64,000 nt of DNA from a virus (lineage: Duplodnaviria; Caudoviricetes), in IMG/VR virus record IMGVR_UViG_3300010429_000387, positions 256,001-320,000 of that record; one strand, 5' to 3'. Numbering within the stretch: position 1 is the first letter of the stretch; every line of letters begins with the position of its first letter. Shown here piece by piece: positions 6,175-63,965 of the stretch. A program made the translations under genes and the position numbers. The notes under the pieces are model-generated. The model saw nothing but the letters and a program-made list of their open reading frames with translations. It searched no databases and was not told the DNA's origin.

Positions 6175-6390
6175 ATGAGCTGCCTTCTATGTGGGGGGAC
6201 CGGCCTGAGGGTTGTATCTCGGGCCGGTGACCCCGTGCCTGGATACCCTCAGAACGGACACACCCGAACGGTCTTTGCTTCGACTACCTACGTGACTTGC
6301 GACTGCCGCATTGTTCGTCTAGGCCCCATTTCACCGAGCCTTGAGGTTCCAGCCCCAACCAGGTTCGAGAGGGTAGTGGACCGTGCATGA
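6175..6390 (+). CDS. Small Zn-finger hypothetical protein with C-terminal TRFERVV tag
   Basis: CxxC...CxC; GAGGG RBS; coupled to the next gene. Confidence 0.7.
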   Translation: MSCLLCGGTGLRVVSRAGDPVPGYPQNGHTRTVFASTTYVTCDCRIVRLGPISPSLEVPAPTRFERVVDRA

Positions 6391-7019
6391 AGAAAGAGGA
6401 CTTCCGAAAGGCTTACGAGGATAGCCAGCAGAAGGGGACCTACCTCATCTGGGTCAACCAACGGAAGGAGACCCTGAAGTCTAGCGTCTCTGCTCATGAC
6501 GTTCTCCGGCACTTCGGGGTTGACCTGAAGTTCAGTGGGGAGCGAGAGGAGCAGATTTGTTGCCCCTTCCACGGTGACAAGGACCCTTCTGCCCGAATCT
6601 ACACGGCCCAGGGGGACAGTCCCTCGGGGGTCTACTGCTGGGTGTGTCGGAAGAGGTGGGACATCTTCGGTCTGTGGAAGGAGTTCCACGGGGACTCGGA
6701 GATGAAGTTCACAGCGGTCCTCCTCGGCTTGGAAAAGGCTTTCGGAATCATCACCCCCGAGGCTCCGGACATGAGCCGGGACTACGGTCCTCGGGGGCCT
6801 ACAGACGAGGAGCAGGCCGTTCTGGACCGGCTGGAGGTCTGTGAGCGACGGCTGAAGTTGGCGAAGCCCAGCTTCCAGTTCAAGGGGTTCCTCACCATCG
6901 GGAAGCTCCTCGACAACCTCCATTACCAGATGAAGCATGGGCTCATTGACGTAGACCTGGCGGACAGGAACGTACAGCTCATCCTCAACAAGATTGGGGA
7001 GAAGACAAGAGGTGGCTAG
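6387..7019 (+). CDS. Stand-alone CHC2 zinc-finger (DnaG primase N-terminal-like) protein
   Basis: CPFHGDKDPS...YCWVC...WDIF; no TOPRIM domain in this ORF. Confidence 0.8.
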   Translation: MKKEDFRKAYEDSQQKGTYLIWVNQRKETLKSSVSAHDVLRHFGVDLKFSGEREEQICCPFHGDKDPSARIYTAQGDSPSGVYCWVCRKRWDIFGLWKEFHGDSEMKFTAVLLGLEKAFGIITPEAPDMSRDYGPRGPTDEEQAVLDRLEVCERRLKLAKPSFQFKGFLTIGKLLDNLHYQMKHGLIDVDLADRNVQLILNKIGEKTRGG

Positions 7020-7440
7020 GAGACTGAAGCTCAAAACAGTGGAGCTGGGGGACCTAGAGTTGTTTCTCATCTACCAGTATGGGGACAAGTGGGAGTCCGA
7101 TTGGCTACCCCTCCAAGGACAGATAGTCACGGGCCTGCTGACTGTGGTTACCCAGGAGACGATGGACCATGCCCTTCGGGGGTGGACCAGTCCCCTGGTG
7201 AAGTCCCTCGGGGTCCCCCCTGAGGGGGCGATTCGGAAGCTCCCAAGTCAACTGTGCTACCGAAGGGATCCCTGCCCCTTCTACCAGAAAAAGACCTGCA
7301 TACCAACGCACCCCAAGATGCCGTGGTGCTTTGAGCCTGAAACCATTGAGGATCCCAACGCCAGAAGTCTTGCTGCTGAGTTGGTTCGGCTGTGGCGAGA
7401 AGGGGTGTACGTAGTGGTGGTGACCCATGCCGCTGAGTGA
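7012..7440 (+). CDS. Hypothetical Cys-rich protein
   Basis: Fills the gap, overlapping both neighbours; GTG start inferred. Confidence 0.65.
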   Translation: MARRLKLKTVELGDLELFLIYQYGDKWESDWLPLQGQIVTGLLTVVTQETMDHALRGWTSPLVKSLGVPPEGAIRKLPSQLCYRRDPCPFYQKKTCIPTHPKMPWCFEPETIEDPNARSLAAELVRLWREGVYVVVVTHAAE

Positions 7441-11926: not shown

Positions 11927-13504
11927 ATGTTGACCCCTGAGATGATCCACCACTTGCGCTCCCTCACTCGTCTCGTGTACGTGGTGACGGACGAAGAGGA
12001 CCGCTTCATCGTGGATTTTCACGAGCAGATGAAGAAGCATGAGGACCGGATCTGGGTGTTCAACGCAGCTCTGGGCCTGAAGCGAGTCACCGACCTCATC
12101 AAGGACTGGTCGAGTCGAGCCCATGCTGTGGAGACCTCGGCTGCCCAGATCAACGAAGCCCTCATCCGGGTCTACCAAGACGACCCCAAGGACAAGGAGC
12201 ACTTCTACCTGTTCACGGATCCTGAACGCTGGTTCAAGGATGAACACGTCATTCGTCGGGTGCTCAACATCATCCACCAGCTTCACCAGGACCTCCGGAT
12301 CGTCAAGTGCATGATCTTCGTGGGTCCCCGTCGGGTGATTCCGGAGAAGCTCGCCCGATACTTCGAGGTGGTACAGTGCTCTGGTCTCAGCAAGCAAGAG
12401 ACTACCGAACTGGTCGAGGGCTTCTGCAAGCAACTCCAGACCAAGGTACCCAACAATCCGGAGACCCTGTTCCGTGGGATGACCAGCTACGAAATCGAGC
12501 AAGTCATCACTCAGTCGGTGGTCAAGACCAAGAAGGATGCGGTCAACCCCAAGCGTGTGGACCCCACCTTCGTGGCGGAGTACAAGCGCAACCAGATCCG
12601 AAAGACGGACCTGGTCCAGATCATCGAGACTGAGGGAACCACCTTCGAGTCTGTGGGTGGGGCCGACCGTTTCAAGGAGTGGGTCACTGAGACTACCTCT
12701 TGCTGGTCTGAAGAGGGCCAGCGCTTCGGCCTCAAGCCTCCCAAGGGTGTGCTCCTGGTCGGGGTCTACGGGTGCGGCAAGTCCCTTTCGGCCAAGGCTC
12801 TGGCGGCTGAGTGGAAGCTCCCCCTCGTCCAGTTCGAGATGGGCAAGCTCCGTTCCTCTGGCGTGGGTGATTCCGAAGCCAACCTCTACCGGGCACTCCG
12901 GATCGTTGAGTCGGTCTCCCCTTGCATCATGTGGATCGATGAGGCTGAGAAGAGCCTCTCCGGTGGGCAGTCCTCTGCCCAGTCTGATGCGGGTACCACC
13001 TCCCGTCTCCTCGGGATTCTCTCGACGTGGGCACAGGAGTCCAAGTCTCCCGTCTGCCTGGTCATGACGGCCAACTCCCTGAAGACCCTTCCGGCTGAGA
13101 TGGTCAACCGGATGCCGGAACGCTTTTTCTTCGACATTCCGGATGAGGAGGCTCGCATCGACATCATCAAGATCCAGGCCAAGGCTGTGAGTCAGGATGT
13201 GTCGAACTTCAGCTTGGCTGAGCTTGCAGAGAAGGCCAAGCTCTTGGTCGGCCGTGAGATCGAGCAAGCCATCGCTTCGGCCATGACACGTAGCTTCAAC
13301 GCCAAGAAGCCTGCCTTGGATGAGACAATTCTGGGTGAAGAGTTGACCCGAAAGCCCCGGATCATCAAGACCATGGGTGATGAGATCAAGGAAATCATCG
13401 ACTGGGTTGGGTACGACCCCGAGGTGGATGACGGGATCCGTGCTCGCCTGGCCTCCAAGAACCGTTCGGAGTCCTTCCGGGTGATGGCGGGAGAGGGTGG
13501 CTAA
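11927..13504 (+). CDS. Ycf46-like AAA+ ATPase (degenerate N-terminal AAA module plus active AAA module)
   Basis: PKGVLLVGVYGCGKS, G.SE.N, WIDEAEK, TAN; N-terminal YVVTDEEDR. Confidence 0.88.
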   Translation: MLTPEMIHHLRSLTRLVYVVTDEEDRFIVDFHEQMKKHEDRIWVFNAALGLKRVTDLIKDWSSRAHAVETSAAQINEALIRVYQDDPKDKEHFYLFTDPERWFKDEHVIRRVLNIIHQLHQDLRIVKCMIFVGPRRVIPEKLARYFEVVQCSGLSKQETTELVEGFCKQLQTKVPNNPETLFRGMTSYEIEQVITQSVVKTKKDAVNPKRVDPTFVAEYKRNQIRKTDLVQIIETEGTTFESVGGADRFKEWVTETTSCWSEEGQRFGLKPPKGVLLVGVYGCGKSLSAKALAAEWKLPLVQFEMGKLRSSGVGDSEANLYRALRIVESVSPCIMWIDEAEKSLSGGQSSAQSDAGTTSRLLGILSTWAQESKSPVCLVMTANSLKTLPAEMVNRMPERFFFDIPDEEARIDIIKIQAKAVSQDVSNFSLAELAEKAKLLVGREIEQAIASAMTRSFNAKKPALDETILGEELTRKPRIIKTMGDEIKEIIDWVGYDPEVDDGIRARLASKNRSESFRVMAGEGG

Positions 13505-15988: not shown

Positions 15989-16172
15989 GACTTTCTTCCG
16001 GGAGCCAAGCTACGTCTTGGTTGGTCCAGTAGCAGTCCACCTTCAGTGTTCCCTCAAAGAAGCAGAAAACGCCCTAGATCAGCTAGTTGAAGAAGGGCAC
16101 ATCAGGTACCTGACCCAGCCTGAGCTGAAAGTGAAGGGGTACTTGCACGGGTACACCAAGAAAACGGTGTAG
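15927..16172 (+). CDS. Small hypothetical protein (winged-HTH-like)
   Basis: GAGGAG RBS; VA.HL.CS..EA...L..LV.EG.I pattern. Confidence 0.6.
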   Translation: MEHWFNKKKPSWEEQKSNLLETFFREPSYVLVGPVAVHLQCSLKEAENALDQLVEEGHIRYLTQPELKVKGYLHGYTKKTV

Positions 16173-16180
16173 ATCCCCGT

Positions 16181-16480
16181 ATGGGGCTCCGGAAGCACAA
16201 GCAAGTCCTCACGCTTTCCCTTCAGCTCTACCAACGGGTGGGCCTTCTGACGGCTGAAGAGGCCGAGGGGTTCCGGCTCATGTACGCACGGGCCAGGACC
16301 CCAGCGGAACAGGAGCAGGTTCGAGCAGCCCTCGACCACCGATTCCACGGATGGAAGACCGAGCAGGACCGGTTCTCGAAGGTCCTTCGTGATGACGTTC
16401 TGGGGGATGACGAGGATGAGGACCCGCCTGAGCTGAGGGAGGCTTTGGAGCGTTCGAGGGTCCGCTTCGGTGTAGGGTGA
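16181..16480 (+). CDS. Hypothetical protein with DRFSKVL tag
   Basis: GGTGTA 9 nt upstream of ATG. Confidence 0.7.
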   Translation: MGLRKHKQVLTLSLQLYQRVGLLTAEEAEGFRLMYARARTPAEQEQVRAALDHRFHGWKTEQDRFSKVLRDDVLGDDEDEDPPELREALERSRVRFGVG

Positions 16481-16485
16481 GGGGC

Positions 16486-17031
16486 ATGGTAAAGCCCCGT
16501 TTTCTTGTGGATGCTGACGAAGTTCTGTTCGACCTCCAAGGTCCTGTTTTGGACATCATGGCGGAGGTGACGGGGCGTCAGTACCGACCCGAAGACTTCG
16601 AGGTCTGGGACCTCTTCTCCGTTCTCACAGAGGTCGAGAAGGCTAGGGTCTTTGACCGGATGGATGCACCTGGTTTCTGTGACTCGCTTCAACCCTTTCC
16701 CGAGGCTGTAGCGGCACTTGAAAGGGTCCGAAGGCACGCTGAGGTGATTGCGGTCACGAGCCCGTATCACGGACCTCTGTGGGTCTACGAACGGAGCAAC
16801 AGTCTCAAGCGGCACTTCGGCTTCGCCAAGAACCAGGTTGTCCACACCTCGGCCAAGTACCTCGTTCGGGGGGCCTTCTTCCTGGATGACAAGCCAGAAC
16901 ACGTCACTTCTTGGGCGGCTGAGAACCCAGAGGGTTGCTCGATGCTCTGGCACACCCCCAACACCAGGACTCTCGGGCTTGACCATCTTCGGGTCTTCTC
17001 CTGGGACCAAGTCCTGGCAAAGGTTGCCTGA
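16486..17031 (+). CDS. HAD-family 5'(3')-deoxyribonucleotidase
   Basis: DADEVLFD motif I, VTSP, K...LDDKP. Confidence 0.85.
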   Translation: MVKPRFLVDADEVLFDLQGPVLDIMAEVTGRQYRPEDFEVWDLFSVLTEVEKARVFDRMDAPGFCDSLQPFPEAVAALERVRRHAEVIAVTSPYHGPLWVYERSNSLKRHFGFAKNQVVHTSAKYLVRGAFFLDDKPEHVTSWAAENPEGCSMLWHTPNTRTLGLDHLRVFSWDQVLAKVA

Positions 17032-17786
17032 TGCCACTCCCCCACATCAGAACAGGCATTGCCGAGCTTGATGTTGCCCTGGGTACCGAGTGTCCAGGGT
17101 TCCCTCGGGGGGCCTTGACCCTTATTTGTGGCGGGGTTGGAACCGGGAAGTCAACTCTGGTCCGGCATCTGGCCCACTATGCAGCAACCATAGGGCACCA
17201 ACGGGTGCTCTTCTGTGATGCTGAGGGGAACCCGCCAGGCCGACATTCAAGTCTCATCCGTGAGGTAGGGGTTGATGGTCCAGTCGATGTTGTTCCAGGT
17301 TCATACACTTCTCCTTTTGATTATCAACAACCAAGTGACCTGGTGGGGCTATTCAATGCCATCCGAGCTTCAGTTCACCTGTATGACCTCATCATAGCGG
17401 ATGCCGTCAGCGTTCTAGGGTTGCCTCCAACTCCAGGGCAGGCTCCACAGATTGCGGCTAGGTCTAGGTTTCTCGGGTCGGCTATTCAGGGGTTGCGGTT
17501 GGAGAACTGTGCCCTGGTGATGGTCTTCCAGAGCCCGAGGAGTGGTCCTTTGGATCGGGGAGTCAACTCCCAACTTGTGACCCACCATGCCCGGCTGATC
17601 CTCGACCTTAGTGGGTTCACCGAAGGGGTGTACTCAGCACACATCGCCAAGGCGACCTGGCCGGTACAGGACGAGGAGTTCGGGTTCCGATATGGGGGTC
17701 CGAGTCAAGTCATTGCCGTCCCAAAGGCCAAGCCCATCGACCGATCCAAAATCCCCACCCGCTTCAACCGAGAGGATCCCCTATGA
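17031..17786 (+). CDS. RecA/RadA/KaiC-superfamily ATPase
   Basis: TG...LD.ALG..GFPRG, Walker A GGVGTGKS, DAEG, Walker B LIIAD; C-terminal TRFNRED tag. Confidence 0.8.
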   Translation: MPLPHIRTGIAELDVALGTECPGFPRGALTLICGGVGTGKSTLVRHLAHYAATIGHQRVLFCDAEGNPPGRHSSLIREVGVDGPVDVVPGSYTSPFDYQQPSDLVGLFNAIRASVHLYDLIIADAVSVLGLPPTPGQAPQIAARSRFLGSAIQGLRLENCALVMVFQSPRSGPLDRGVNSQLVTHHARLILDLSGFTEGVYSAHIAKATWPVQDEEFGFRYGGPSQVIAVPKAKPIDRSKIPTRFNREDPL

Positions 17787-18946: not shown

Positions 18947-18951
18947 GGCAC

Positions 18952-19320
18952 ATGAAACAAGCCAGGATGCTGCATGAAGCCATCTCGGCCGCCAATCGTG
19001 GTGAGCGGGTGATTGTGACCGCTCACCACACGAGCCGAGCCCTTTGGATCAAGGGTGAGGCTCGCAAGGCGGTAGCCAATGCCCTCCTCCAACAGGAGGG
19101 TCAGGACTTCATGCGGTTCAAGTCTGGCGGAGAAATTCGATTCTTCGCCCACACCAAAGAGGAAAAGCTCCGAGGCTTCAGGGGTAAGGTCTACCAGATT
19201 CAAGTAGATAGCCCCTATGATGAGGGAGACTCTCTTGAGGACTGGGAGCTGGACTCAAGGTACCTTCCCCCGAGTGGGCCGCACCCAAGTAGGTTCGAGA
19301 GGATTCTGAATGAAGACTGA
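18952..19320 (+). CDS. Hypothetical protein with C-terminal SRFERIL tag
   Basis: GAGG RBS; lies between thyA and folA. Confidence 0.7.
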   Translation: MKQARMLHEAISAANRGERVIVTAHHTSRALWIKGEARKAVANALLQQEGQDFMRFKSGGEIRFFAHTKEEKLRGFRGKVYQIQVDSPYDEGDSLEDWELDSRYLPPSGPHPSRFERILNED

Positions 19321-19849: not shown

Positions 19850-20190
19850 AGCACTTCGCAGTTGAAACCTTGGGGAACACAAGCCTCCGTGTGGTCGAGG
19901 CAGTCGTTCGGGCAGCAGCCAGTTCGGGATACTCGTTCTCTCGGATCGAGTCACTTGACCGAACCAAAGTTGGCTCTACCGAGTTCCAGAGGTTTAGAGT
20001 GGGTGCCGACCCCACAGCCCTTCTTGAGGTCCTGTTTTCGGAAGGCCGGGGCACCATCAGCCCAGACTGCCTGGTGCGCTTGAAGTCGAGAAACGGAAAG
20101 GTCCCGTTTACCCTACTCCTTGCTGCCCCGAGGGAGCCGAAGGTTTACCGGGGTCCTGGGGACCCTTACTGGGAGCGTCAGTTCGACTGA
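19846..20190 (+). CDS. Hypothetical protein
   Basis: ATGA coupling to folA. Confidence 0.6.
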   Translation: MKHFAVETLGNTSLRVVEAVVRAAASSGYSFSRIESLDRTKVGSTEFQRFRVGADPTALLEVLFSEGRGTISPDCLVRLKSRNGKVPFTLLLAAPREPKVYRGPGDPYWERQFD

Positions 20191-20253
20191 GAAGGTTTCT
20201 ATCAGCCTTGCCTTGGTGACCCATCTGACGACGGTGCCAAGGGAGACCTTCTC

Positions 20254-22032: not shown

Positions 22033-22042
22033 GGCCAACTCA

Positions 22043-24060: not shown

Positions 24061-26388
24061 ATGCCTAGCCCGATCAAGTGCTCGTTCTGTGGCCGTCCTC
24101 GGAACGAGGTCAAGAACATCATTGCTGCCGACTCTGAGGCTGGCCCCTTCATTTGCAACCGTTGTGTGGAGACGGCAGCCAACGAAATCAAGGCTGGGGC
24201 AAAGAGGGGTGGCTTCGAGCAGAAGAAAGAGGATCCCCTTCGCAAGCCGAGGGAGATCCGGGACTACCTAGACCAGTACGTGATCGGGCAAGACCAGGCC
24301 AAGGTGGACATTGCAATCGCAGTGTACAACCACTTCAAGCGTCGGAAGCTCCGGGACGCCAAGCCTGAGGATGGCATCGATCTGGTCGAGATCGAGAAGA
24401 GCAACATCTTGCTCCTTGGGCCATCGGGTTGCCATCGTAAGGGTCAGCTTGTCTTGATGTATGATGGTACCCTGAAAGCGGTGGAGAACGTCCAAGTTGG
24501 GGACCAACTCATGGGGCCTGACTCCACTCCTCGAAATGTGCTGGAACTTCATAGGGGGGTGGAGGAAATGGTTGAGATTGTGCCCCTCAAGGGTGAGCCC
24601 TGGGTGGTCAACCGGGGGCACATTCTGACGCTGGTTCGTACTTGCTACAACGGTGGTTCTGGGTACCGTCCTGTAAACGAGGTCAAGGATGTACCCCTTC
24701 GTGATTGGCTTGGTTGGTCAAGGACTCAGAAGTCAGTTCACAAGCTGTTTCGTGTACCTGTCGAGTTCAAAGCACAGGAGGAGCTACCACTGGACCCATA
24801 CTTTCTGGGCGTCTTGCTTGGTGATGGGTCACTCGGTGTGACTCCCCGAGTCACCACCGAAGACCCAGAAATCCTTGAGGAAACTCGTAGGCAGGCGGCC
24901 AACTTCGGTTTGGTCGTCTCTATCTACGACTACAATGAGGAGAAGTGCCCCTCCTATGCCCTGTGTAAGGTAGAGGGTCCAGGTGGTCTCCAAGACGAGG
25001 CTTCTCGCAATCCTATTGCACAGAGGTTGGCGGGTCTGGATCTTCTGGAAGTGACGGGTGAGTCCAAGTTCATCCCTCACTGCTACAAGGTATCCTCCAG
25101 AGCAGATCGACTGGCAATCCTTGCGGGGCTCCTGGACACTGATGGATCCCTTGATGAGGACGGGTGTGGTTTCGACTTCATCAACAAGTCCAAAGAGCTT
25201 GTTGATGACCTGGCCTTCATCGCTAGAAGCCTTGGTTTTGCTTGCTATCCTCAGCCATGTGTGAAGGGGTGCCAGACTGGGGTGGAGGGCATCTACTACC
25301 GGATGTTCATTTCTGGTGACGTGGCTGAGATTCCAACCAAGGTTGAGAGGAAGAAGGCCCTTGCTCGGAAAGCCATCAAGAATGTGCTTCGGACAGGGTT
25401 CAAAACCCGTGACCTACCCCCGGAGGAATACTTCGGGTTTGTCCTCGATGGGGACCACCGTTACCTGCTTGACGACTTCACTGTGACCCATAATACGGGC
25501 AAGACTCACATTGCCAGGACCATCGCTCGGATGCTTCAGGTCCCCTTCCATGTTGGTGACGCCACCCGGCTGACCCAGGCTGGCTACGTCGGGGATGACG
25601 TGGAGACCCTTCTTCAGGGGCTCGTCCTGGATGCTGGGGGCGACATCGAGCGGGCACAGTGGGGGATCATCTTCCTCGATGAGGTGGACAAGATCGCCCG
25701 AGGTTCTGGCCGGGACAGGGCTGGGTACCGAGACGTGTCGGGAGAGGGGGTCCAGCAGTCCCTCCTCAAGCTCCTCGAAGGTTCGAGGGTCAACGTCCCC
25801 CGTGGTGGCGGAAAAGCTGGGATGATGATGGCATATGACACCATCGACACTACCAACATCCTGTTCATCTGTGCTGGTTCCTTTGCTGGGATCGAACCCA
25901 TCGTGGCCCAGAGGGTGAACAAGGGGTCGGCTCGTCTCGGGTTTGGGGCCAACACAGAGAAGAAGAAGCTCGACCTGTCGGCCTCCTACCTGGCTGCCAA
26001 CGAAGACGACATCATGGAGTTCGGCATCATTCCCGAGATGATGGGCCGTCTCCCGGTCATCACCACGACCATCGAGCTTTCCGAGGATGAGATGATTCGG
26101 GTTCTCACCGAGCCCCGGAACAGCATCATCAAGCAGGTGAAGAGCCTGTTCCAGATGGACGGTGTCTGCCTGGACTTCACGGAGGATGCTCTGAGGGCCA
26201 TCGCTCGGGAAGCCAAGAAGCGCCCAACTGGGGCACGGGCACTTCGGAGCATCGTCGAGAAGACCCTGAAGACCTTTGCCTATGACACCCCCAGCAACGA
26301 GACTATCGAGCGGATCCTTGTGACTGAGGACACCGTGAATGGTGGGCAGGGGGTTATCACTCTTCGGGAGCAGCGAGCAGAGGCGTGA
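24061..26388 (+). CDS. clpX: ClpX AAA+ unfoldase containing an intein
   Basis: C4 Zn-binding domain CSFCG...CNRC, YVIGQ..AK, KSNILLLGPSG/TGKT, AGYVG, DEVDK, RDVSGEGVQQ, LGF loop, TGARALR. Confidence 0.95.
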   Translation: MPSPIKCSFCGRPRNEVKNIIAADSEAGPFICNRCVETAANEIKAGAKRGGFEQKKEDPLRKPREIRDYLDQYVIGQDQAKVDIAIAVYNHFKRRKLRDAKPEDGIDLVEIEKSNILLLGPSGCHRKGQLVLMYDGTLKAVENVQVGDQLMGPDSTPRNVLELHRGVEEMVEIVPLKGEPWVVNRGHILTLVRTCYNGGSGYRPVNEVKDVPLRDWLGWSRTQKSVHKLFRVPVEFKAQEELPLDPYFLGVLLGDGSLGVTPRVTTEDPEILEETRRQAANFGLVVSIYDYNEEKCPSYALCKVEGPGGLQDEASRNPIAQRLAGLDLLEVTGESKFIPHCYKVSSRADRLAILAGLLDTDGSLDEDGCGFDFINKSKELVDDLAFIARSLGFACYPQPCVKGCQTGVEGIYYRMFISGDVAEIPTKVERKKALARKAIKNVLRTGFKTRDLPPEEYFGFVLDGDHRYLLDDFTVTHNTGKTHIARTIARMLQVPFHVGDATRLTQAGYVGDDVETLLQGLVLDAGGDIERAQWGIIFLDEVDKIARGSGRDRAGYRDVSGEGVQQSLLKLLEGSRVNVPRGGGKAGMMMAYDTIDTTNILFICAGSFAGIEPIVAQRVNKGSARLGFGANTEKKKLDLSASYLAANEDDIMEFGIIPEMMGRLPVITTTIELSEDEMIRVLTEPRNSIIKQVKSLFQMDGVCLDFTEDALRAIAREAKKRPTGARALRSIVEKTLKTFAYDTPSNETIERILVTEDTVNGGQGVITLREQRAEA
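24430..25494 (+). mobile_element. Intein with LAGLIDADG endonuclease in the ClpX Walker A (355 aa)
   Basis: Starts CHRKGQ, VNRGHIL, LGVLLGDGS, LAGLLDTDGS, ends VTHN followed by Thr. Confidence 0.93.
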
Positions 26389-33237: not shown

Positions 33238-33764
33238 TGGAGCTTGGCGATCTGGTTCAGTACCAAGACAAGCGGTGGCTGGTCACGAGCTACGACCGGG
33301 TAGCTCGCCTGATGACACTCTACAGCCTGGATGGGTCGAAGATAGAGCTTCCTCGGGAGTTCGACCGGACCCACACGGCTGAGCTGGGGGTTGTTGCCAA
33401 CCCTCCGAAGCAATGGCCGATGCTGACTGCTCCCTTCAAGAGCGGGGCGGGTCCTTTCGTCAGGTTGGTTGTCCCTGGACCCCCTGGCAGGGACTCTGAG
33501 AGGGTTCTGGAACCTTGGGTGGATTGGGTCCCGAGCGACTTTGCCAGAGAGGGCGGGTCCTTCTTCGTTCGACCCGAGGTCCGACTCCTTCCCGGTATGC
33601 TCTTGTTGGCAACCCATAGAAGTGGGTCCTTGATCCGGATCGTCGTGCCCAAGACGTTCGGCACGGTGGCTCACCGGGTGGCAGTTTCCAAGGCCAGGGC
33701 GCCAGCCGCAAGGCCATCCGAACAGAACCGATTCACCAGACTCTTCAATGACGATGACGACTAA
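33237..33764 (+). CDS. Hypothetical protein (SH3-like N-terminus) with C-terminal NRFTRLF tag
   Basis: TGATG coupling. Confidence 0.7.
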   Translation: MELGDLVQYQDKRWLVTSYDRVARLMTLYSLDGSKIELPREFDRTHTAELGVVANPPKQWPMLTAPFKSGAGPFVRLVVPGPPGRDSERVLEPWVDWVPSDFAREGGSFFVRPEVRLLPGMLLLATHRSGSLIRIVVPKTFGTVAHRVAVSKARAPAARPSEQNRFTRLFNDDDD

Positions 33765-37821: not shown

Positions 37822-38067
37822 TCAGCAGGCCAAGTTTTCGGTGACGATTCTTTCCAGCCGGGTCGGGGGTGGCGGGGTAGGAGGCGGAGGTGGACCCGCT
37901 ATCTCGTCCAAAATGGCAAAAACCCGAGCATCTTCCTCGGCTTGTATCTCCTGGATCGCCTGCCAGTGGAGCCCTCGGTACGGAGGTGGTGGAGGCGGAC
38001 GGGGTTGCCGCCTTCCCAGGGCAAAGTACCAACTCGCCTCGATACTGCCGTCATCCTCGAACAACAC
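37822..38067 (-). CDS. Pro-rich hypothetical protein with TRLERIV tag
   Basis: GGTGTA (forward TACACC at 38078-38083) 10 nt upstream of GTG. Confidence 0.6.
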   Translation of the reverse strand: MLFEDDGSIEASWYFALGRRQPRPPPPPPYRGLHWQAIQEIQAEEDARVFAILDEIAGPPPPPTPPPPTRLERIVTENLAC

Positions 38068-40520: not shown

Positions 40521-41684
40521 ATGAACTTCGATTGGAACGAGTACAAGGGGAATCTCACCTGGCTCCCTGACAGGACGCTCTATCTCACGAGGCACGGAAG
40601 CCATGCCTACGGGACGAGTCTCCCAACCTCGGATGTGGACATCCGAGGGATCTGCATCGCCCCGAAGACCTACTACCTCGGATTCTCTCAGGTTTTCGAG
40701 CAGGCGGACCAGAAGGAGCCAGACTTCTGCATCTTCGAGATCCGGAAGTTCCTCCGGTTGGCTTCGGATGCTAACCCGAACGTGCTGGAGTTGCTGCATA
40801 CGGACCCTGAGGATCACCTTCTGACGAGCCAACTGGGTCAGAAACTCATCGACCATCGGCACCTGTTCTTGAGCCGGAAGGCCAAGCACACCTTCTCTGG
40901 GTACGCCGTTTCTCAGCTCAAGAGGATCAACACCCACTACCGGTGGCTGAAGAACCCACCTACGGGTGCCCCTTCGAGGGGAGAGTTCGGACTTCCCGAG
41001 CGGACAGTCATTCCTGGGGACCAGCTTGCGGCTGCCAACTCTGCCATCAAGAAGCGCCTGGACGAGTGGAACTGGCATGAGCTGGAGAACATCGAGCCCG
41101 CCATGCGTCAGGCCATCCAGGATGAGTTCTACCGTCGCCTGACCGAGATCACCCAGTGGTCCTGGGAGCAGACTGATGAGAAGGTCTGGCAGGCAGCAGC
41201 AAACAGCCTGGGCCTGTCTACCAACTTCATCGAGTTACTAGACAAGGAGCGCCAGTACACGGCTCGCCTTCGAGAGTGGCAGCAGTACAACGAGTGGAAG
41301 AAGAACCGGAACCAGGACCGGGCCAAGCTCGAAGAGAAGTTCGGCTACGACACGAAGCATGGGATGCACCTGGTTCGCCTACTCCGAATGTGTCGGGAGA
41401 TCCTGACCGAGGGCAAGGTCTTGGTTCGTCGCCCGGATGCGGAAGAGCTTCTTCGGATCCGGGCTGGGGCCTGGGACTACTTCGAGCTGGTGGCTTGGGC
41501 GGAGCAACAGGACAAGGAACTCGAAGAGCTGATGAAGACCTCGTCCCTTCCAAAGCAGCCTGACCGGGCCAGGATCGATGACCTGTGCATCGAACTTGTC
41601 GAGGAATCCTTCATGACTTCGTGGAAGGCCATCCCACCTGCTGGTGGGGACCGGTTCAGCCACATTCTTGGGGATGACAAGTAG
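40521..41684 (+). CDS. Pol-beta superfamily nucleotidyltransferase (RlaP/YcgL-like) with C-terminal DRFSHIL tag
   Basis: GSHAYG....SDVD.RG, NPN.LELL, GYA.SQ, GYDTK..MHLVRLL, L..IR.G. Confidence 0.88.
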   Translation: MNFDWNEYKGNLTWLPDRTLYLTRHGSHAYGTSLPTSDVDIRGICIAPKTYYLGFSQVFEQADQKEPDFCIFEIRKFLRLASDANPNVLELLHTDPEDHLLTSQLGQKLIDHRHLFLSRKAKHTFSGYAVSQLKRINTHYRWLKNPPTGAPSRGEFGLPERTVIPGDQLAAANSAIKKRLDEWNWHELENIEPAMRQAIQDEFYRRLTEITQWSWEQTDEKVWQAAANSLGLSTNFIELLDKERQYTARLREWQQYNEWKKNRNQDRAKLEEKFGYDTKHGMHLVRLLRMCREILTEGKVLVRRPDAEELLRIRAGAWDYFELVAWAEQQDKELEELMKTSSLPKQPDRARIDDLCIELVEESFMTSWKAIPPAGGDRFSHILGDDK

Positions 41685-54119: not shown

Positions 54120-55457
54120 ATGTCAAAGGTCATCTTGGTTGCTGGAGCAGGCTTCGGAGACGAGGGCAAGGGGTCGATTGTAGACCACCTGACCCGCAAG
54201 CACTCGGCCCAAACCATCGTTCGCTACAACGGGGGAGCCCAAGCAGCCCACAACGTTGTGGACCCCGACGGGAGGCACCACACCTTCTCCCAGTTCGGGT
54301 CGGGTACCCTTGCTGGGGCCAAGACCCACCTCAGTCGATTCATGCTGGTGAACCCCATCTCGATGATCTCCGAGGGCAATCACCTGGTCTCCCTGGGGGT
54401 CTCAGACGCCTTCCAGAGGGTGACAGTAGATGGTGAAGCCCTGGTCACCACACCCTTCCACGTCTCCCTCAACCGAATCCGGGAGTTGTGCCGGGATGCT
54501 GGGGAGGGGCGGCACGGGTCCTGTGGAATGGGAATCGGAGAGACTGTGGCCTATGCAGTAGCCAACCCTGAGGGGGCTATCAGGTTCAAGGACCTTTCCA
54601 ATCCAGGGACCCTGATGGTGAAGCTCGGGGACCTCCAGGACTACATGGTCACGGAGGCCAGCAAACTGGTGGGCAAGGTTCCCCTCAATGATGGCTTGGA
54701 GAAGGAGTGCAAGCTCATTTGCCAAGATGAGTTGGCGTCAATCTGCTTGGAGTGGTTCGCTAAGCTCCTGAGTCTTGGGGTCAGATCAGTAGGCCCTGAG
54801 TATCTGTCGGCAGTCCTCACCAAAGGGACAACCATCTTCGAGGGAGCCCAAGGGGTTCTCTTGGATGAGGAGTGGGGCTTCCATCCCTTCACGACCCGGA
54901 GCAACTGTACCTTCGAGAACGCCCTCCAGCTCATCGAGGGCTTCAATGGTGAGGTCACCAAGGTAGGGGTCCTTCGAGCCTACCACACTCGGCACGGGGC
55001 TGGCCCCTTCCCAACTGAGAGCCCAGAGGTCAAGGCTACAGGAGACCACAATGGGGTCGGACCTTGGCAGAAAGGATTCCGAGCCGGGTACTTCGACTTC
55101 GTGTTGGCCCGGTATGCTCGTCTGGCCCTCGGGGGCGTCGATGAGGTGGCCCTCTGCCATCTCGACCACGTCCAGGGACCCCAGAAGGTCTGCCTCGCCT
55201 ACGCATGGCCCCACTGGTATGGCCCTCAAGGCCCGAACCAGTACAAGATCCACAAGATACCCAGGGCAGACTACGAGCGGCTGAAGGCAATGTTCGATGA
55301 AGAGGGGAGCACGTATCAGCACCCCTACGACGGGACGATAGAGCCTGTCTACACGACACTTCCGAGCGTTGACCGTCTGATCTCCGGTGTAGAGAAGGCT
55401 ATGAGAGCACCTGTGACGATTCGATCCTATGGGACTAGAGCTGGAGACAAGCGATGA
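54120..55457 (+). CDS. Divergent adenylosuccinate-synthetase (PurA)-fold ligase
   Basis: GDEGKG, R.NGG.QA.H, G.GIG, FEGAQG.LLD...G..P..T.S, Y.TRHG.GPFPTE; lacks the TTGR aspartate-binding loop. Confidence 0.88.
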   Translation: MSKVILVAGAGFGDEGKGSIVDHLTRKHSAQTIVRYNGGAQAAHNVVDPDGRHHTFSQFGSGTLAGAKTHLSRFMLVNPISMISEGNHLVSLGVSDAFQRVTVDGEALVTTPFHVSLNRIRELCRDAGEGRHGSCGMGIGETVAYAVANPEGAIRFKDLSNPGTLMVKLGDLQDYMVTEASKLVGKVPLNDGLEKECKLICQDELASICLEWFAKLLSLGVRSVGPEYLSAVLTKGTTIFEGAQGVLLDEEWGFHPFTTRSNCTFENALQLIEGFNGEVTKVGVLRAYHTRHGAGPFPTESPEVKATGDHNGVGPWQKGFRAGYFDFVLARYARLALGGVDEVALCHLDHVQGPQKVCLAYAWPHWYGPQGPNQYKIHKIPRADYERLKAMFDEEGSTYQHPYDGTIEPVYTTLPSVDRLISGVEKAMRAPVTIRSYGTRAGDKR

Positions 55458-56452
55458 GCGTCAAGGCGGTCCTGGCTCAGACGGAGCACCTGAACAGGCT
55501 GGTGGCTTCGATTCGGTTCGACAAGCCTGGGGTGAAGTCCGTCAAGTTCGGGGACAAGACCCTGGTCGTTCAGGGGCGGGTGCTTCAGGGGGACCTCTGC
55601 GACATCTACGAGGGTACCTACACAGACCCGAAGCCCGTGGATGAGACCGCCAAGACTGTCGGCACCCGGTTCGACCGGATCCTTGACGATGAAGACGAGG
55701 TTGAAGGTGGGATTCCTGTGCTGGTCAAGGTAGCGAGGAGCGACCTCGACAACGACCTGGTTGAGAACGAGGCCAACAACCTGGGTGTCCTCTACCCTCT
55801 CACCGAGAAGGACGAGAAGTTCTACCGGTACCTCCCCCGAAGCTATGGGGGGTTCAAGACCAAGAACGAGCTTCAAGCCCACATCCTTGGCAGGATCGAT
55901 GGGTTCGTCACCTTGGCTGACATCTTGAAAGCCTACCCGAAGGGACTGGACTTCCGGGACATGGTCTGGATGTTCAAGCGGACCCTGGCCGGGATCGGGT
56001 TCGCTCACGAGAACAAGTTCGTCCACGGGGCGATCCTGCCACCTCACCTGATGTTCCACCCGACCGACCACGGGGCAAAGATCATCGACTGGTCCTACTC
56101 GATTCGGATGACCAGCTCCAAGGGGGGTCGGCTCAAGGCCATGGTGGCAGGGTACGAGGATTTCTACGCTCCGGAGATTCCTGACCGGAGAGACACCAAC
56201 CAGACGGCAGACCTGTACATGGTTGCCAAGTGCATGATGGCGACCTTGGGGGCGGACCTGAAGACGAACGCCATGCCGGACTCGGTACCCAAGCCTCTTC
56301 AGGACTTCCTTCGTCGCTTTATCGACCCCCAGCCTGGGATGAGGGTCTCCGATGCGTGGGCACTCCACGATGTCCTTGACGGGATCCTGCTGGACCTCGT
56401 TGGGAAGCCCAAGTACCGACCGCTCAAGATGCCATCCCACACGGCCCCCTAA
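55454..56452 (+). CDS. Ser/Thr-kinase-fold protein with atypical catalytic loop and internal TRFDRIL tag
   Basis: VLVK, N.E, HGAILPPHL (in place of HRD..N), IDW, YAPE, DLY. Confidence 0.8.
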   Translation: MSVKAVLAQTEHLNRLVASIRFDKPGVKSVKFGDKTLVVQGRVLQGDLCDIYEGTYTDPKPVDETAKTVGTRFDRILDDEDEVEGGIPVLVKVARSDLDNDLVENEANNLGVLYPLTEKDEKFYRYLPRSYGGFKTKNELQAHILGRIDGFVTLADILKAYPKGLDFRDMVWMFKRTLAGIGFAHENKFVHGAILPPHLMFHPTDHGAKIIDWSYSIRMTSSKGGRLKAMVAGYEDFYAPEIPDRRDTNQTADLYMVAKCMMATLGADLKTNAMPDSVPKPLQDFLRRFIDPQPGMRVSDAWALHDVLDGILLDLVGKPKYRPLKMPSHTAP

Positions 56453-56475: not shown

Positions 56476-57219
56476 ATGGCCGACAGACTACCCGATCAGA
56501 AAACGCCCTCAACCAAAGAAGAGCTGCTCGAAGCCCTCTGGAGGGCCTGGCTTCACCTGTTTGGGGAGCCTCCCAAGAAGGAATCCATCTGGATCCTGAT
56601 GGCACAATGGGCCTTGGAAACCGGATGGGGCAAGTATTGCCACAACTACAACCTCGGGAACGTGAAGTCCTCGAACGGGGACGGGTACGACTACACCTAC
56701 TTCGCTTGCAACGAGATCCTGAAGACAGCTCAGGCTCAAGCCTATGCTGCGAAGAGTCCGGACACAGCCAAGATCACCGTCTACCGGAAGGATGGAACGG
56801 CCATCATCTGGTTCTATCCGGACCACCCTGGTTGCCGGTTCCGAGCCTTCCACACGCTCCTGGAAGGGGCTACTGACCACATCAGTATCGTTCACAAGCG
56901 GTTCTCGAAGGCATGGCCTGCTGTGATTGCTGGCAATCCAGCTCAGTATTCCCACATGCTTCGGCAGCAGGGGTACTACACGGCTGACGAGTCCAGCTAC
57001 ACGAAGACCCTGGTGTCGGTCTACAACACCATCAAGGCGGTCAAGTTCGATTACGACTCTCTCCCCGTGGTGAACGAGGAACAGAGTGAACGGATCATGA
57101 ACTTGGTTGCTCTGACCATGCAGCAAAGCATCGAGGAGAGCACCCGATTCACACGGGTGCTATTCGATGATGAGGACGAGAATCCAACAGTGGATGAGTC
57201 GGGGAAAGCGAACGCCTGA
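56476..57219 (+). CDS. GH73/glucosaminidase-like peptidoglycan hydrolase with TRFTRVL tail
   Basis: AQWALETGWG, N.N.GN.K, FRAF....G, GYYTA...Y. Confidence 0.75.
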   Translation: MADRLPDQKTPSTKEELLEALWRAWLHLFGEPPKKESIWILMAQWALETGWGKYCHNYNLGNVKSSNGDGYDYTYFACNEILKTAQAQAYAAKSPDTAKITVYRKDGTAIIWFYPDHPGCRFRAFHTLLEGATDHISIVHKRFSKAWPAVIAGNPAQYSHMLRQQGYYTADESSYTKTLVSVYNTIKAVKFDYDSLPVVNEEQSERIMNLVALTMQQSIEESTRFTRVLFDDEDENPTVDESGKANA

Positions 57220-62169: not shown

Positions 62170-63118
62170 GAACCCAAGACCCCAGAGGAGGATAGCCATG
62201 GAGTCTGCTATCGAGGAGTATTGGGTCGATTTACGGCGTGGGCGATCCAAGGCAAAGCGTCTTGCACCTAGCTTCTGTTCCCCCGCCATGTTGAGCCCCC
62301 TAGTTTCATGGGCCAAGCAGCTCTACCAGCCAGACCGGGTGACTACTCAAGTTCTTCCTGGGGACTACAGGGAGGGCTCACTGAAGCTCATCATCGACGA
62401 ACTTCCACAGGAAGTCCTGGTTCGAGCTGGCTCACTTCAACGTGGGGATGACCCGATGAAGATGGTCCTGCATACGATTCGGGATATGAAGGTACCATCC
62501 AGGAACCGAACTATGTCCCAGTTCGAGTTCCTCCCGCCGCACCCAGCAGAGAACCCCTTCGGGTGGGACCTCCTCTGGTGTCTTGTAGCTTGCAACGAGG
62601 TTACCCTCCCGGCACACCTCCGAGACCTCGTGAATCGGAGATCCAGGATGTCCGATTTCTATCGAGCCCTCGTTGAGATTCGGTTCGAGGCGCGAGAGAA
62701 GCACTTCTTTCCAGCCATCGAAGAGAACGTCATCGCCCTCAGCCAGTGGGTAGAGGGACAGTACAAGGAAGATGATGATCACCTCTCAGCCTTGCTTCAG
62801 AAGGCCAACATCAAGTCACCTGTTCGGACAGAGGAGCGGTTCGAGCTTCTCCTCTTCATCCTTACCCTTGCTCAGCACAATCGGCTCCTTGATGACCTCA
62901 TTGTCTACCTTGACCAACTGGACCAGCTATCCACAGATGGCTGCGAGCAGTTGCTCAAGATGGTCGGGGCGGTAGACCGATGGGCGCACTACGGCTGTCC
63001 GATGAATCTTCTTCTAGGGTGGAGGGGATCGAAAGAGGACTTGAGGATGCTCCGAAGTCAACACGCACGCCTTGCCGCTCGTCTTCGAGAGGGCATGGAG
63101 TGGACCCAGAGGGTGTGA
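62159..63118 (+). CDS. Hypothetical protein (possible degenerate P-loop fold)
   Basis: 319-aa ORF; LIVYLDQLD resembles a Walker B; start uncertain. Confidence 0.65.
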   Translation: MRDENPRPQRRIAMESAIEEYWVDLRRGRSKAKRLAPSFCSPAMLSPLVSWAKQLYQPDRVTTQVLPGDYREGSLKLIIDELPQEVLVRAGSLQRGDDPMKMVLHTIRDMKVPSRNRTMSQFEFLPPHPAENPFGWDLLWCLVACNEVTLPAHLRDLVNRRSRMSDFYRALVEIRFEAREKHFFPAIEENVIALSQWVEGQYKEDDDHLSALLQKANIKSPVRTEERFELLLFILTLAQHNRLLDDLIVYLDQLDQLSTDGCEQLLKMVGAVDRWAHYGCPMNLLLGWRGSKEDLRMLRSQHARLAARLREGMEWTQRV

Positions 63119-63474
63119 TGGTTGACCGCCATCGTATATTCGGGGACTACCTCCGAAAGGCCAGAGAGAAGAAGGGGGTGACCCTTTCGGCCCTTGCTCG
63201 CCTCCTCGGGTGCTCGGTACCCTATCTTTCAGACGTGGAGACCGGAAGACGGAACCCCCTGACCGAGAAGAAGCTGGTACAAACGGCTGAGTTCCTCGGA
63301 CTTCAGCCAGAGAGCCTCAAGATCAAGGCTGCCATGAGCCTTGGTCAGTTCAACCTGCCTGCTGGGTCCCCCAAGGCTGACCGCCTTGCCGTCAAACTAG
63401 CCAAGGCATGGCCGGACCTGGAAGAGGAAGACCTTCAGGCCATCGAGAAAATCATCGAGAAGGTTTCTGCGTGA
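63118..63474 (+). CDS. XRE-family HTH transcriptional regulator
   Basis: FG.YLRKAR...G.TL..LA..LG.S..YLS.VE.GRR.P. Confidence 0.88.
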   Translation: MVDRHRIFGDYLRKAREKKGVTLSALARLLGCSVPYLSDVETGRRNPLTEKKLVQTAEFLGLQPESLKIKAAMSLGQFNLPAGSPKADRLAVKLAKAWPDLEEEDLQAIEKIIEKVSA

Positions 63475-63965
63475 TTTGCATTGACCTTTCCCAGGTCGAG
63501 GCCCGAATAGACCTGGCACCTGCCTCGAAGGTGCCCTTGGTCATTCTTGGGTGTGGCCCGGAAGAGGTCTGGAAGCCGGGGCTCTTCAAGGTCCTGAAGG
63601 AGCCGACCCGAAGGTGGAGAGTTGCCTGCAACTTCACTGCGGGTGGAATGACTGACCTGCTTCGAGTGTCTGACGGTTGCTTCTCAGCTCACTCTTTCCC
63701 CGGAGCCCGAAGGGGCAATGCCCTGGTGTTCGACTTCACCCTCACGAAGATCGGGGACACCTGGGAAGACCTCATCCTGGACATCACCAACGTCAACGAA
63801 CCCCTGAACCTCTGGGGGCTTGGGGTCCGGATCGCTCTGGAGGCGAACTCACCTTCTGTCCGGTTGACGGCCAAGGGACTCAGCCGCCAGCTCAGAGACA
63901 TCACCTGGGAAGGCGCCACCATCCCGACCACCAGGTTCGACCGACTCGATTCCATGGATCTGTAG
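63471..63965 (+). CDS. Hypothetical protein with C-terminal TRFDRL tag
   Basis: GTGA coupling. Confidence 0.65.
   Translation: MICIDLSQVEARIDLAPASKVPLVILGCGPEEVWKPGLFKVLKEPTRRWRVACNFTAGGMTDLLRVSDGCFSAHSFPGARRGNALVFDFTLTKIGDTWEDLILDITNVNEPLNLWGLGVRIALEANSPSVRLTAKGLSRQLRDITWEGATIPTTRFDRLDSMDL

What the first reader, a model, noticed from the sequence alone, without database searches (positions are those of the whole stretch)
6358..63965. One short peptide tag, (T/S/D/N)-R-F-x-(R/K/H)-(I/L/V)-(L/V/F) plus acidic residues, on at least 11 unrelated phage proteins: candidate phage-wide addressing system
Seen in sequence: PTRFERVVDRA* (6358, Zn-finger protein); QDRFSKVLRDD (16367); PTRFNREDPL* (17757, RecA-like); PSRFERILNED* (19288); QNRFTRLFNDDDD* (33726); PTRLERIVTEN (37841-37870, minus); GDRFSHILGDDK* (41649, nucleotidyltransferase); ASRFERVLTHD (41701-41730, minus); GTRFDRILDDEDE (55664, internal loop of the kinase); STRFTRVLFDDEDE (57142, GH73-like); TTRFDRLDSMDL* (63930). 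DHRFVMVLRPDE (about 51130) is a weak twelfth. Ten of the 11 lie in C-terminal tails, usually after a Pro/Ser/Ala-rich linker and outside the folded domain. Codons differ (AGG/CGC/CGG/CGA/CGT-type for Arg), so conservation is at the protein level and this is not a DNA repeat. The carriers share no fold or pathway. Inference: this is a short linear motif that docks on one common partner and was added independently to many genes. Candidate readers in this window are the phage ClpX with its altered substrate loop and the Ycf46-type AAA+ ATPase. A compartment scaffold or host hub protein is equally possible. I know of no description of this tag, but I could not search.
Basis: partly seen in the sequence, partly recalled or inferred. 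Interest (0 to 1): 0.92.

Follow-up and report, generated by a model that had tools for sequence, protein, structure and literature searches.

The report
Shared address tag on megaphage proteins
About one protein in twelve of this 407-kb wastewater phage, otherwise unrelated, carries the same six-residue peptide on a floppy tail; it is the local dialect of an address tag used across a group of giant phages, and its reader is still unknown.

Summary
All 11 sites are in the sequence. Genome-wide (407 kb, about 480 genes) some 35-40 non-homologous proteins carry [TS]-R-F-[DE]-R-[ILV] plus an acidic tail: 25 strict matches against 0.7 in shuffled proteomes, 15 of them within 16 residues of the C-terminus against 0.03. 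All six Arg codons are used, so selection acts on the peptide. The tag sits after Pro-rich linkers, mostly at C-termini but also at N-termini and in loops. It is missing from homologues of the same domains elsewhere, yet orthologues that have it keep it.

New here: it is one dialect of a clade-wide tag, aromatic-[DE]-[RH]-aliphatic. A 416-kb relative ends 41 small proteins in [TND]-L-W-D-H-L. Other lineages use R-Y-E-R-L or A-W-E-H-L. One orthologous family switches dialect with its lineage, so tag and reader co-evolve.

The docking-motif reading is well supported. Phage ClpX (zinc-binding N domain, no phage ClpP) is the leading candidate on circumstantial grounds only, about 1 in 4.

I found no description in the papers searched. 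This scan has noted analogous, non-identical tags in other virus groups.

The parts
6355..6390 (+). C-terminal tag (P-T-R-F-E-R-V-V..., stop at 6388-6390) of a 71-aa Cys-rich ORF, 6175-6390
   Evidence: site; ORF fills a gap, codon score neutral; no Pfam family
16367..16396 (+). Internal or near-C-terminal tag (D-R-F-S-K-V-L + acidic run) in the 99-aa protein 16181-16480
   Evidence: Orthologues in G001 and G002 keep D-R-F-S-R-[LM]-L at the same place
17757..17786 (+). C-terminal tag of the short-tail form (T-R-F-N-R-E-D-P-L, stop) on the KaiC/RecA-like ATPase 17031-17786
19288..19320 (+). C-terminal tag (S-R-F-E-R-I-L-N-E-D, stop) on the 122-aa protein 18952-19320
   Evidence: The PHROG profile covers residues 1-80 only, so linker and tag are an appendage
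33726..33764 (+). C-terminal tag (N-R-F-T-R-L-F + four Asp, stop) of the oldest carrier family, 33237-33764
   Evidence: All 25 homologues keep a tag after a variable linker. AF2 places it as a low-confidence helix after a disordered linker. The dialect follows the lineage
37834..37863 (-). Leu variant of the tag (T-R-L-E-R-I-V...) after a poly-Pro linker in the 81-aa ORF 37822-38067
   Evidence: codon score neutral, fills a gap behind a minus-strand operon
41649..41684 (+). C-terminal tag (D-R-F-S-H-I-L-G-D-D-K, stop) on the RlaP nucleotidyltransferase 40521-41684
   Evidence: Absent from 119 homologues at 59-83% identity
41695..41724 (-). Tag (S-R-F-E-R-V-L...) 21 codons before the stop of the 88-aa ORF 41656-41922
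   Evidence: weakest gene call of the set
55664..55699 (+). Internal tag (T-R-F-D-R-I-L + acidic run) in an N-lobe insertion of the kinase-fold protein 55454-56452
57142..57180 (+). Tag (T-R-F-T-R-V-L-F + acidic run) 24 residues from the end of the GH73 glucosaminidase 56476-57219
   Evidence: Orthologues in G001 and G002 have no tag
63930..63965 (+). C-terminal tag (T-R-F-D-R-L-D-S-M-D-L, stop) on the protein 63408/63471-63965
24061..26388 (+). Phage ClpX: zinc-binding N domain, intein, AAA+ module. Leading but unproven candidate reader
   Evidence: Pfam zf-C4_ClpX, AAA_2, Hint, LAGLIDADG. The ZBD aligns to E. coli ClpX ZBD structures. No ClpP in the phage. Phyletic match to tag-bearing genomes
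11927..13504 (+). Ycf46-like AAA+ ATPase with a 240-residue N-terminal region. Second candidate reader
   Evidence: Same phyletic profile as ClpX

Best explanation
The RF peptide is a short linear docking (address) motif. It is an N-capped, probably helical segment, [TS]-R-F-[DE]-R-[ILV], followed by acidic residues and held on a Pro-rich disordered linker. It has been grafted again and again onto the ends, and occasionally into loops, of some 35-40 unrelated, mostly small accessory proteins. It is the local dialect of a clade-wide tag with the core aromatic-[DE]-[RH]-aliphatic. Within a genome the dialect is uniform, between lineages it differs, and orthologues change dialect with their lineage. 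The tag is therefore read by one common partner that co-evolves with it, most likely a phage-encoded protein. My working mechanism is inferred, not shown, and I put it at about 1 in 4. The tag would then work like the C-terminal ClpX-binding peptide of the adaptor SspB: it tethers the carrier, or whatever the carrier holds, to the unfoldase, which works with host ClpP because the phage has none. The result would be timed removal or remodelling of a whole set of accessory proteins.
For: Shown. (1) Extreme enrichment and C-terminal bias. (2) Selection at protein level. (3) Carriers are unrelated. (4) The tag is appended to older domains. (5) The tag is retained where the body has drifted to 28-40% identity and in all 25 members of one family despite a variable linker. 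(6) AF2 places it as a separate low-confidence helix after a disordered linker. (7) Position independence: C-terminal, N-terminal and internal copies. (8) Dialects: G005 has 41 C-terminal [TND]-L-W-D-H-[LIV] tags against 2 expected; L191 has seven [TS]-R-Y-E-R-L in 22 kb; L193 has eight [TS]-A-W-[ED]-H-L; G001 and G002 share our dialect. (9) The family of window 33237-33764 carries the dialect of its own genome in five genomes and about 20 further lineages. (10) The tag is absent from the relatives Tunturi_5 and LR745208.1. For ClpX, circumstantial only. It has an intact ZBD. It occurs in all 5 tag-bearing genomes and in neither tag-free one. The oldest carrier lies within 10 kb of clpX in about 20 lineages, and its build (beta domain, flexible linker, terminal peptide) is like that of SspB, which I compare from my own knowledge.
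Against: No partner has been shown to bind. The phyletic match of ClpX rests on 7 genomes, is confounded by relatedness and is shared by 46 of 480 genes, including the Ycf46-like AAA+. ZBD sequences differ between dialect groups, but I could not separate that from ordinary divergence. The tag does not resemble the E. coli SspB/UmuD ClpX-binding peptides as I recall them. Some carriers are enzymes (RlaP, GH73, SNF2) for which degradation is not an obvious need. A host hub that varies with host lineage would also give dialects.
Confidence: 0.7

Rival explanations
1. The reader is another phage-encoded protein. It could be the Ycf46-like AAA+ (11927-13504), read through its N-terminal region in the way Vps4-MIT or p97-N domains read short helical motifs, or one of the conserved proteins of unknown function.
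For: The Ycf46-like AAA+ has the same phyletic profile as ClpX. 46 genes share that profile, many with no known family. Reading of short Arg-containing helices by AAA+ N domains is established elsewhere (my own knowledge).
Against: No direct evidence. Two other AAA+ proteins fit worse. The 751-aa one (genome 364366-366621) is absent from tag-rich G005 and occurs in L192, where no tags were seen nearby. The 416-aa one is absent from G004.
Confidence: 0.22
2. The tag docks on a host hub, for example a host protease or unfoldase (Lon, ClpXP), RNA polymerase or the replisome. The dialects would then follow host differences.
For: Many carriers are small ORFans in accessory-gene blocks of the kind that often holds host-takeover genes. 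The N-terminal domain of the oldest carrier resembles the RNAP-binding Tudor domains of CarD and UvrD, Z 7.4 to 6.6.
Against: Hosts are unknown, so nothing could be tested. Uniform but sharply different dialects in phages whose capsid proteins are 92-97% identical fit a fast-evolving phage partner better than a conserved host hub. Z about 7 on a common fold is weak.
Confidence: 0.15
3. The tag is a capsid-loading signal, analogous to encapsulin cargo peptides, the T4 capsid-targeting sequence or the coat-binding C-terminus of P22 scaffold. It would mark proteins that are packed in the head and injected with the DNA.
For: Terminal peptide after a flexible linker, as in encapsulin cargo. A GH73 lysin and small, possibly anti-defence, proteins are plausible injected cargo. 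The major capsid protein is unusually conserved. One carrier holds a capsid-protein fragment.
Against: C-terminal tags are nearly absent from the 72-255-kb structural block. The capsid protein is 92-97% identical across genomes with very different dialects, and a relative with 84% identical capsid protein has no tag. Some tagged genes follow sigma-70-like promoter motifs. Other first-stage notes propose a separate N-terminal capsid signal in this genome (unchecked).
Confidence: 0.1
4. There is no dedicated reader. The peptide would be a self-acting element: a sticker for self-association or condensates, a solubility tail, or a helix cap with a general stabilising role.
For: The [STDN]-x-x-[DE] capping-box pattern and the acidic tail are generic helix and solubility features.
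Against: Generic features do not explain near-invariant R-F-x-R in one genome and L-W-D-H-L in another, nor dialect switching within one orthologous family.
Confidence: 0.05
5. It is chance, a DNA-level repeat or regulatory element read in frame, or an assembly artefact.
For: None found.
Against: 16 observed against 0.24 expected. All six Arg codons are used. The stretch is recovered from contigs of independent wastewater and digester runs.
Confidence: 0.01

Closest known systems
ClpX-binding (XB) peptide of the adaptor SspB and the related peptide of UmuD, read by the ClpX zinc-binding domain (E. coli; solved as 2DS8, seen in the hit list)
   Same: A short peptide at the end of a long flexible linker, shared by unrelated proteins, that tethers them to the N domain of an AAA+ unfoldase. 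The phage encodes such a ClpX with that domain.
   Different: The sequence is unlike the E. coli peptides as I recall them. There are tens of carriers per genome instead of a few. Binding is not shown, and the dialects have no known counterpart.
Encapsulin cargo-loading peptides, the T4 capsid-targeting sequence and the P22 scaffold C-terminus
   Same: A terminal targeting peptide on a flexible linker that sends unrelated cargo to an HK97-fold shell.
   Different: Carriers lie outside the structural module, and the capsid protein does not vary with the dialect. No cleavage site is associated with the tag.
Sliding-clamp-binding motifs (bacterial QL[SD]LF type; T4/RB69 gp45-binding C-termini; PIP box)
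   Same: A hub-docking penta- or hexapeptide found mostly at C-termini but also at N-termini and internally, on many clients.
   Different: The consensus differs, and the clients here are mostly small ORFans rather than replication enzymes. A clamp-like motif of that kind, G-[ST]-[IV]-L-D-[ML]-F at the C-terminus, does occur on large proteins of the tag-free relative LR745208.1.
LIR/AIM motifs read by Atg8-family proteins (core aromatic-x-x-aliphatic flanked by acidic residues; the p62 core W-T-H-L)
   Same: The clade-wide core (W-D-H-L, W-E-H-L, F-E-R-I, Y-E-R-L with acidic flanks) fits the LIR pattern.
   Different: No Atg8-like reader is known in bacteria or was sought here. This is a resemblance from memory and may be convergence on a generic way of binding.
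MIT-MIM (Vps4) and VIM/VBM (p97) motifs
   Same: Short Arg- or Leu-containing helices at C-termini of many substrates or cofactors, read by the N domain of an AAA+ ATPase.
   Different: Eukaryotic and archaeal systems. There is no sequence relation, and the N domains of the phage AAA+ proteins are uncharacterised.
Analogous tags noted by this scan in other viruses (e1-4772764: T4-like phages, C-terminal [DN][YNH]-P-E-x-x-L; e1-831089: putative DPANN viruses, C-terminal N-W-[KR]-x-[VI]-L)
   Same: One short terminal peptide on many unrelated small early proteins, uniform within a genome and different between genomes, reader unknown.
   Different: Different sequences and virus groups. Those notes are AI reports that I did not re-test.

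Membership tests
ClpX N-domain tethering peptide (SspB-XB type) | A ClpX with a zinc-binding N domain is available to read it | tested here: met
   zf-C4_ClpX at residues 6-43 of window 24061-26388. It aligns to the E. coli ZBD structures 2DS5/1OVX. Present in G001, G004 and G005.
ClpX N-domain tethering peptide (SspB-XB type) | The peptide binds the ZBD | not testable with these tools
   Needs binding assays. The one co-folding job gave no verdict and is listed only under Tried and rejected.
ClpX N-domain tethering peptide (SspB-XB type) | The peptide sits at the end of a flexible linker, outside the folded domain | tested here: met
   Pro-rich upstream segments. AF2 gives a low-confidence linker and a separate helix. 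PHROG profiles stop before the linker.
ClpX N-domain tethering peptide (SspB-XB type) | Sequence likeness to known XB peptides | not tested
   Compared only from memory (Leu-Arg-Val-Val-Lys type); it looks dissimilar.
ClpX N-domain tethering peptide (SspB-XB type) | A ClpP partner for degradation | tested here: not met
   No CLP_protease match in the 407-kb genome. A host ClpP would be needed, and the host is unknown.
Capsid or encapsulin cargo-loading peptide | Carriers are encoded with, or co-vary with, the shell protein | tested here: not met
   C-terminal tags are nearly absent from the 72-255-kb structural block. The capsid protein is 92-97% identical across different dialects. A tag-free relative has 84% identical capsid protein.
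Capsid or encapsulin cargo-loading peptide | Carriers are found inside particles | not testable with these tools
   The phage is uncultured and no proteomics is at hand.
Sliding-clamp-binding motif | Consensus of the QL[SD]LF or L-D-F-L-F type on replication and repair enzymes | tested here: not met
   The consensus differs. Most carriers have no family or are not replisome parts.
LIR/AIM motif | Core aromatic-x-x-[LIV] with acidic flanks | tested here: met
   Dialect cores and acidic tails.
LIR/AIM motif | An Atg8-family reader is present | not tested
   No search for ubiquitin-like folds was made.
DNA-level repeat or regulatory element | Conservation at nucleotide level, independent of frame | tested here: not met
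   All six Arg codons at both Arg positions, and variable third positions.

The most novel reading that the evidence does not exclude
A group of giant phages runs its own proteome address code. It is a fast-evolving, genome-specific terminal peptide that hands up to 40 accessory proteins per genome to a phage-encoded AAA+ unfoldase (ClpX, working with host ClpP). The tagged proteins would be either a timed self-destruct set or a library of SspB-like adaptors, each bringing a different host target to destruction, a phage counterpart of the way eukaryotic viruses hijack degradation machinery.
Probability: 0.15. Interest if true: 0.92.

Novelty: new variant of a known kind. Interest (0 to 1): 0.8.

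Why it matters
Hub-docking peptides are known for single machines: sliding clamps, the ClpX adaptor SspB, encapsulins, T4 head proteins. A tag on about 8% of a phage proteome, conserved as mutually distinct dialects across a clade of 350-500-kb phages, would define a regulon at the protein level. It would pick out in one stroke the set of mostly unknown accessory proteins that share a fate: degradation, localisation or packaging. It would give a handle for finding their common partner. It would also offer a compact, orthogonal set of tag-reader pairs for protein engineering. The dialects give built-in specificity controls, which makes the question directly testable with peptides and recombinant proteins even though the phage has no cultured host.

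Tried and rejected
1. Co-folding of two copies of the ClpX ZBD (residues 1-62, with zinc) and the 40-residue tail of window 18952-19320 gave no verdict (score 0.02 against a mark of 0.34). This is neither support nor evidence against.
2. The megablast search of 12 kb of the window (20000-32000) against the phage collection found nothing.
4. RlaP-centred loci of 80 related phages showed almost no tags. That neighbourhood is simply poor in small accessory genes, and my first regex missed the other dialects. I wrongly classed G004 and G005 as tag-free until.
5. DNA-pattern counts in relatives were uninformative for the same reason.
6. Promoter classes: tagged genes lie behind both promoter-like motifs, so no timing could be inferred.
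7. The 751-aa AAA+ protein (genome 364366-366621) looked promising by phyletic profile and sits next to tags in L190, L191 and L193. It is absent from tag-rich G005 and occurs in L192, where I saw no tags nearby.
8. In the ClpX loci, ZBD presence against nearby tags was underpowered: 0.56 tags against 0.32 control matches per locus. ZBD residues against dialect could not be separated from phylogeny.
9. Fold of the oldest carrier: only weak Tudor/SH3/KOW-like matches, with CarD and UvrD-CTD on top at Z 7.4 to 6.6, within the noise range the tool states. SspB is not among the rows listed.
10. Pfam on that family gave nothing significant.
11. The likeness of the tag to the AAA second region of homology (R-P-G-R-F-D-R) was considered. 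Both phage AAA+ proteins I read keep their own Arg fingers, so I treat it as coincidence.
12. A papain-like protease was considered as a tag-cleaving enzyme. The dialects do not fit a common P2-P1 site.
13. Literature searches for the literal motifs and for tags in huge or nucleus-forming phages found nothing relevant.
14. Strain variants in four runs: none of the 40 listed variant positions falls in the three tags of 16000-20000, but fewer than one is expected by chance.


Full report
Context. The window is bases 256001-320000 of a 407,078-bp virus record with direct terminal repeats, GC 0.58. Its major capsid protein (genome 133118-133990) is 84% identical to that of the uncultured 485-kb phage LR745208.1. 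It is 48% identical to that of Tunturiibacter phage Tunturi_5 and 38% to that of Bacillus phage G. The DNA recurs in anaerobic-digester and wastewater metagenomes of several studies. The window holds a replication and nucleotide-metabolism module: SNF2 helicase, DnaB with an intein, primase-like Zn ribbon, family-A polymerase, thymidylate synthase, DHFR, RNase HII and Dam. It also holds a ClpX with an intein, a Ycf46-like AAA+ protein and many small genes with no known family.

- With my own codon-usage gene calls for the whole genome (about 480 genes), [TS]RF[DE]R occurs 16 times against 0.24 in shuffled proteomes. Ten of these lie within 15 residues of a C-terminus, against none.
- A slightly wider pattern gives 25 (15 C-terminal) against 0.72 (0.03).
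- An unbiased count of every gapped 4-mer puts T-R-F-x-R, P-x-R-F-x-R and R-F-D-R at the top of the whole proteome.
- Counting Leu variants, N-terminal and internal copies, and a few small ORFs my caller missed, about 35-40 proteins carry the tag.
- They cluster at 256-406 kb and 11-34 kb and are nearly absent from the 72-255-kb structural block.
- Both Arg positions use all six codons.
- No carrier hits another by BLASTP.
- The bodies that can be named are unrelated.
- Upstream segments are 2.8-fold enriched in Pro and downstream ones 4.9-fold in Asp.
- Two tail forms exist. One is R-F-x-R-[ILV]-[LV]-x-acidic. The other is a short form with the first Arg exactly 8 residues from the stop, P-[ST]-R-F-[DE]-R-[ED]-D-x-[LIV].
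- The residue before the first Arg is T, S, D or N, and the third position is nearly always an oxygen-bearing residue. This is the pattern of a helix N-cap with a capping box (the reading is inference).

The tag is an appendage under selection.
- 119 homologues of the RlaP enzyme, up to 83% identical, end without it.
- GH73 orthologues in two sister phages lack it.
- PHROG profiles match only the bodies of two carriers and leave linker plus tag uncovered, at the C-terminus in one and the N-terminus in the other.
- Where orthologues have the tag it persists while the body drifts to 28-40% identity.
- The clearest case is the 175-aa family of window 33237-33764. All 25 homologues from many metagenomes keep a tag behind an Ala/Lys/Pro linker of variable length and sequence.
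- AlphaFold2 gives a confident beta domain (residues 1-140, pLDDT about 94), a helix, a low-confidence linker, and the tag as a separate short helix.

The main new result is that the tag comes in dialects.
- Whole-genome comparison shows the same R-F dialect, less abundant, in two sister phages: G001 has 10 against 0.8 expected and G002 has 9 against 0.7.
- A 416-kb relative (G005) that I first scored as tag-free ends 41 proteins in [TND]-L-W-D-H-[LIV] plus a few polar or acidic residues. The median carrier length is about 92 aa, and 25 carriers lie in one 17.5-kb block. With the general pattern aromatic-[DE]-[RH]-aliphatic that is 41 C-terminal hits against 2.1 expected.
- Other lineages use [TS]-R-Y-E-R-L (seven in 22 kb), [TS]-A-W-[ED]-H-L (eight in 22 kb), or x-[AV]-[YW]-x-[HR]-L (G004).
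- In the orthologous family above, each genome's copy carries that genome's dialect. Loci around ClpX from about 20 further lineages show the same family with still more variants.
- Two relatives have no such tag: Tunturi_5 and LR745208.1.
- Uniformity within genomes, divergence between them, and dialect switching inside one family are what co-evolution with a single reader predicts. They are hard to explain without a reader.

Who reads it?
- Nothing shows binding.
- ClpX is my first candidate. It has a genuine zinc-binding N domain, the known peptide-reading module of ClpX. It is present in all five tag-bearing genomes and in neither tag-free relative.
- The oldest carrier is syntenic with clpX, and its build recalls the adaptor SspB: a beta domain, a flexible linker and a terminal peptide (the comparison with SspB is from my own knowledge).
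- The phage has no ClpP, so any proteolysis would need the host's.
- These are correlations over 7 related genomes. 46 genes share the profile, among them the Ycf46-like AAA+.
- Two other AAA+ proteins fit worse.
- The capsid protein is an unlikely reader. It is 92-97% identical across different dialects and 84% identical in a tag-free phage.
- A host hub cannot be excluded because the hosts are unknown.

Comparison with what is known. In working principle the tag is closest to hub-docking peptides: the ClpX-binding tail of SspB, clamp-binding motifs, encapsulin and T4 targeting peptides, and MIT-MIM. In sequence its core looks like an LIR motif. It is not a demonstrated member of any of these (see the membership table). 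I found no description of it in the papers searched. Earlier notes of this scan describe analogous but different terminal tags in T4-like phages and in putative DPANN viruses, so genome-specific terminal tags on small viral proteins may be a wider, undescribed habit. Other first-stage notes on this same genome saw the same RF tag.

Verdict. The docking-motif interpretation is supported (about 0.7-0.8). I class it as a new variant of a known kind, the hub-docking or targeting peptide, and of high interest because the dialects make it directly testable.

Noticed in passing
genome-wide; in the window e.g. 26396, 29432 (-), 38545, 39240: Two promoter-like motif classes sit at fixed, very short distances from start codons, which suggests leaderless mRNAs. 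One is TTGAAA-N15/16-CGTTGTA followed by about 5 nt and the start codon (26 sites). The other is CTGGTGTA followed by 9 nt and ATG (10 exact cases, 58 motif copies).
   Followed up: partly
genome 342822-343634 (-), beyond the window; locus L128:2822-3634: A tagged 270-aa protein carries a 74-residue segment 52-54% identical to the N-terminal part of the phage's own major capsid protein (phrog_2522). A neighbour (genome 339812-340588) has a shorter such fragment.
   Followed up: partly
genome 133118-133990 (L126:13118-13990): The 290-aa major capsid protein is 92-97% identical among five phages whose other shared proteins are mostly 35-75% identical.
   Followed up: no
window 3407-6166 and 24061-26388; homologues of genome 364366-366621: Inteins with LAGLIDADG domains interrupt DnaB and ClpX. 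Many homologues of the 751-aa AAA+ protein in other megaphages also carry inteins at one site.
   Followed up: no
LR745208.1 (loci L194-L218): This tag-free relative ends at least nine mostly large proteins (118-1290 aa) in G-[ST]-[IV]-L-D-[ML]-F-x. This looks like a sliding-clamp-binding motif, a different hub tag.
   Followed up: no
genome 334376-335626 (-) (L127:14376-15626): A classic-clade AAA+ ATPase with a 200-residue N domain ends in a run of about 45 residues that are almost all Asp or Glu. It lies among tagged genes.
   Followed up: partly
genome about 339716-339830 (-): A 38-codon frame directly downstream of the gene 339812-340588, in another frame, ends in a perfect tag (S-R-F-E-R-I-L...). 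This may be a frameshifted or mis-assembled C-terminus.
   Followed up: no
window 33237-33764: The first 55 residues of the oldest carrier family fold like the RNAP-binding Tudor domains of CarD/CdnL and the UvrD/PcrA C-terminus (Z 7.4 to 6.6). This is weak, but it hints at a link to RNA polymerase.
   Followed up: partly
genome 171820-172260 and window 701-2440 (about 1940): T-R-F-E-[RK] also occurs inside an FmdB-type zinc ribbon and inside the SNF2 core. Both lie in folded domains and are conserved in tag-free contexts, so they are probably false positives of the regex.
   Followed up: partly
genome 51138-51959, 53559-54224, 35868-36773: The phage encodes a papain-family cysteine protease, a peptide deformylase and an ADP-ribosylglycohydrolase.
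   Followed up: no
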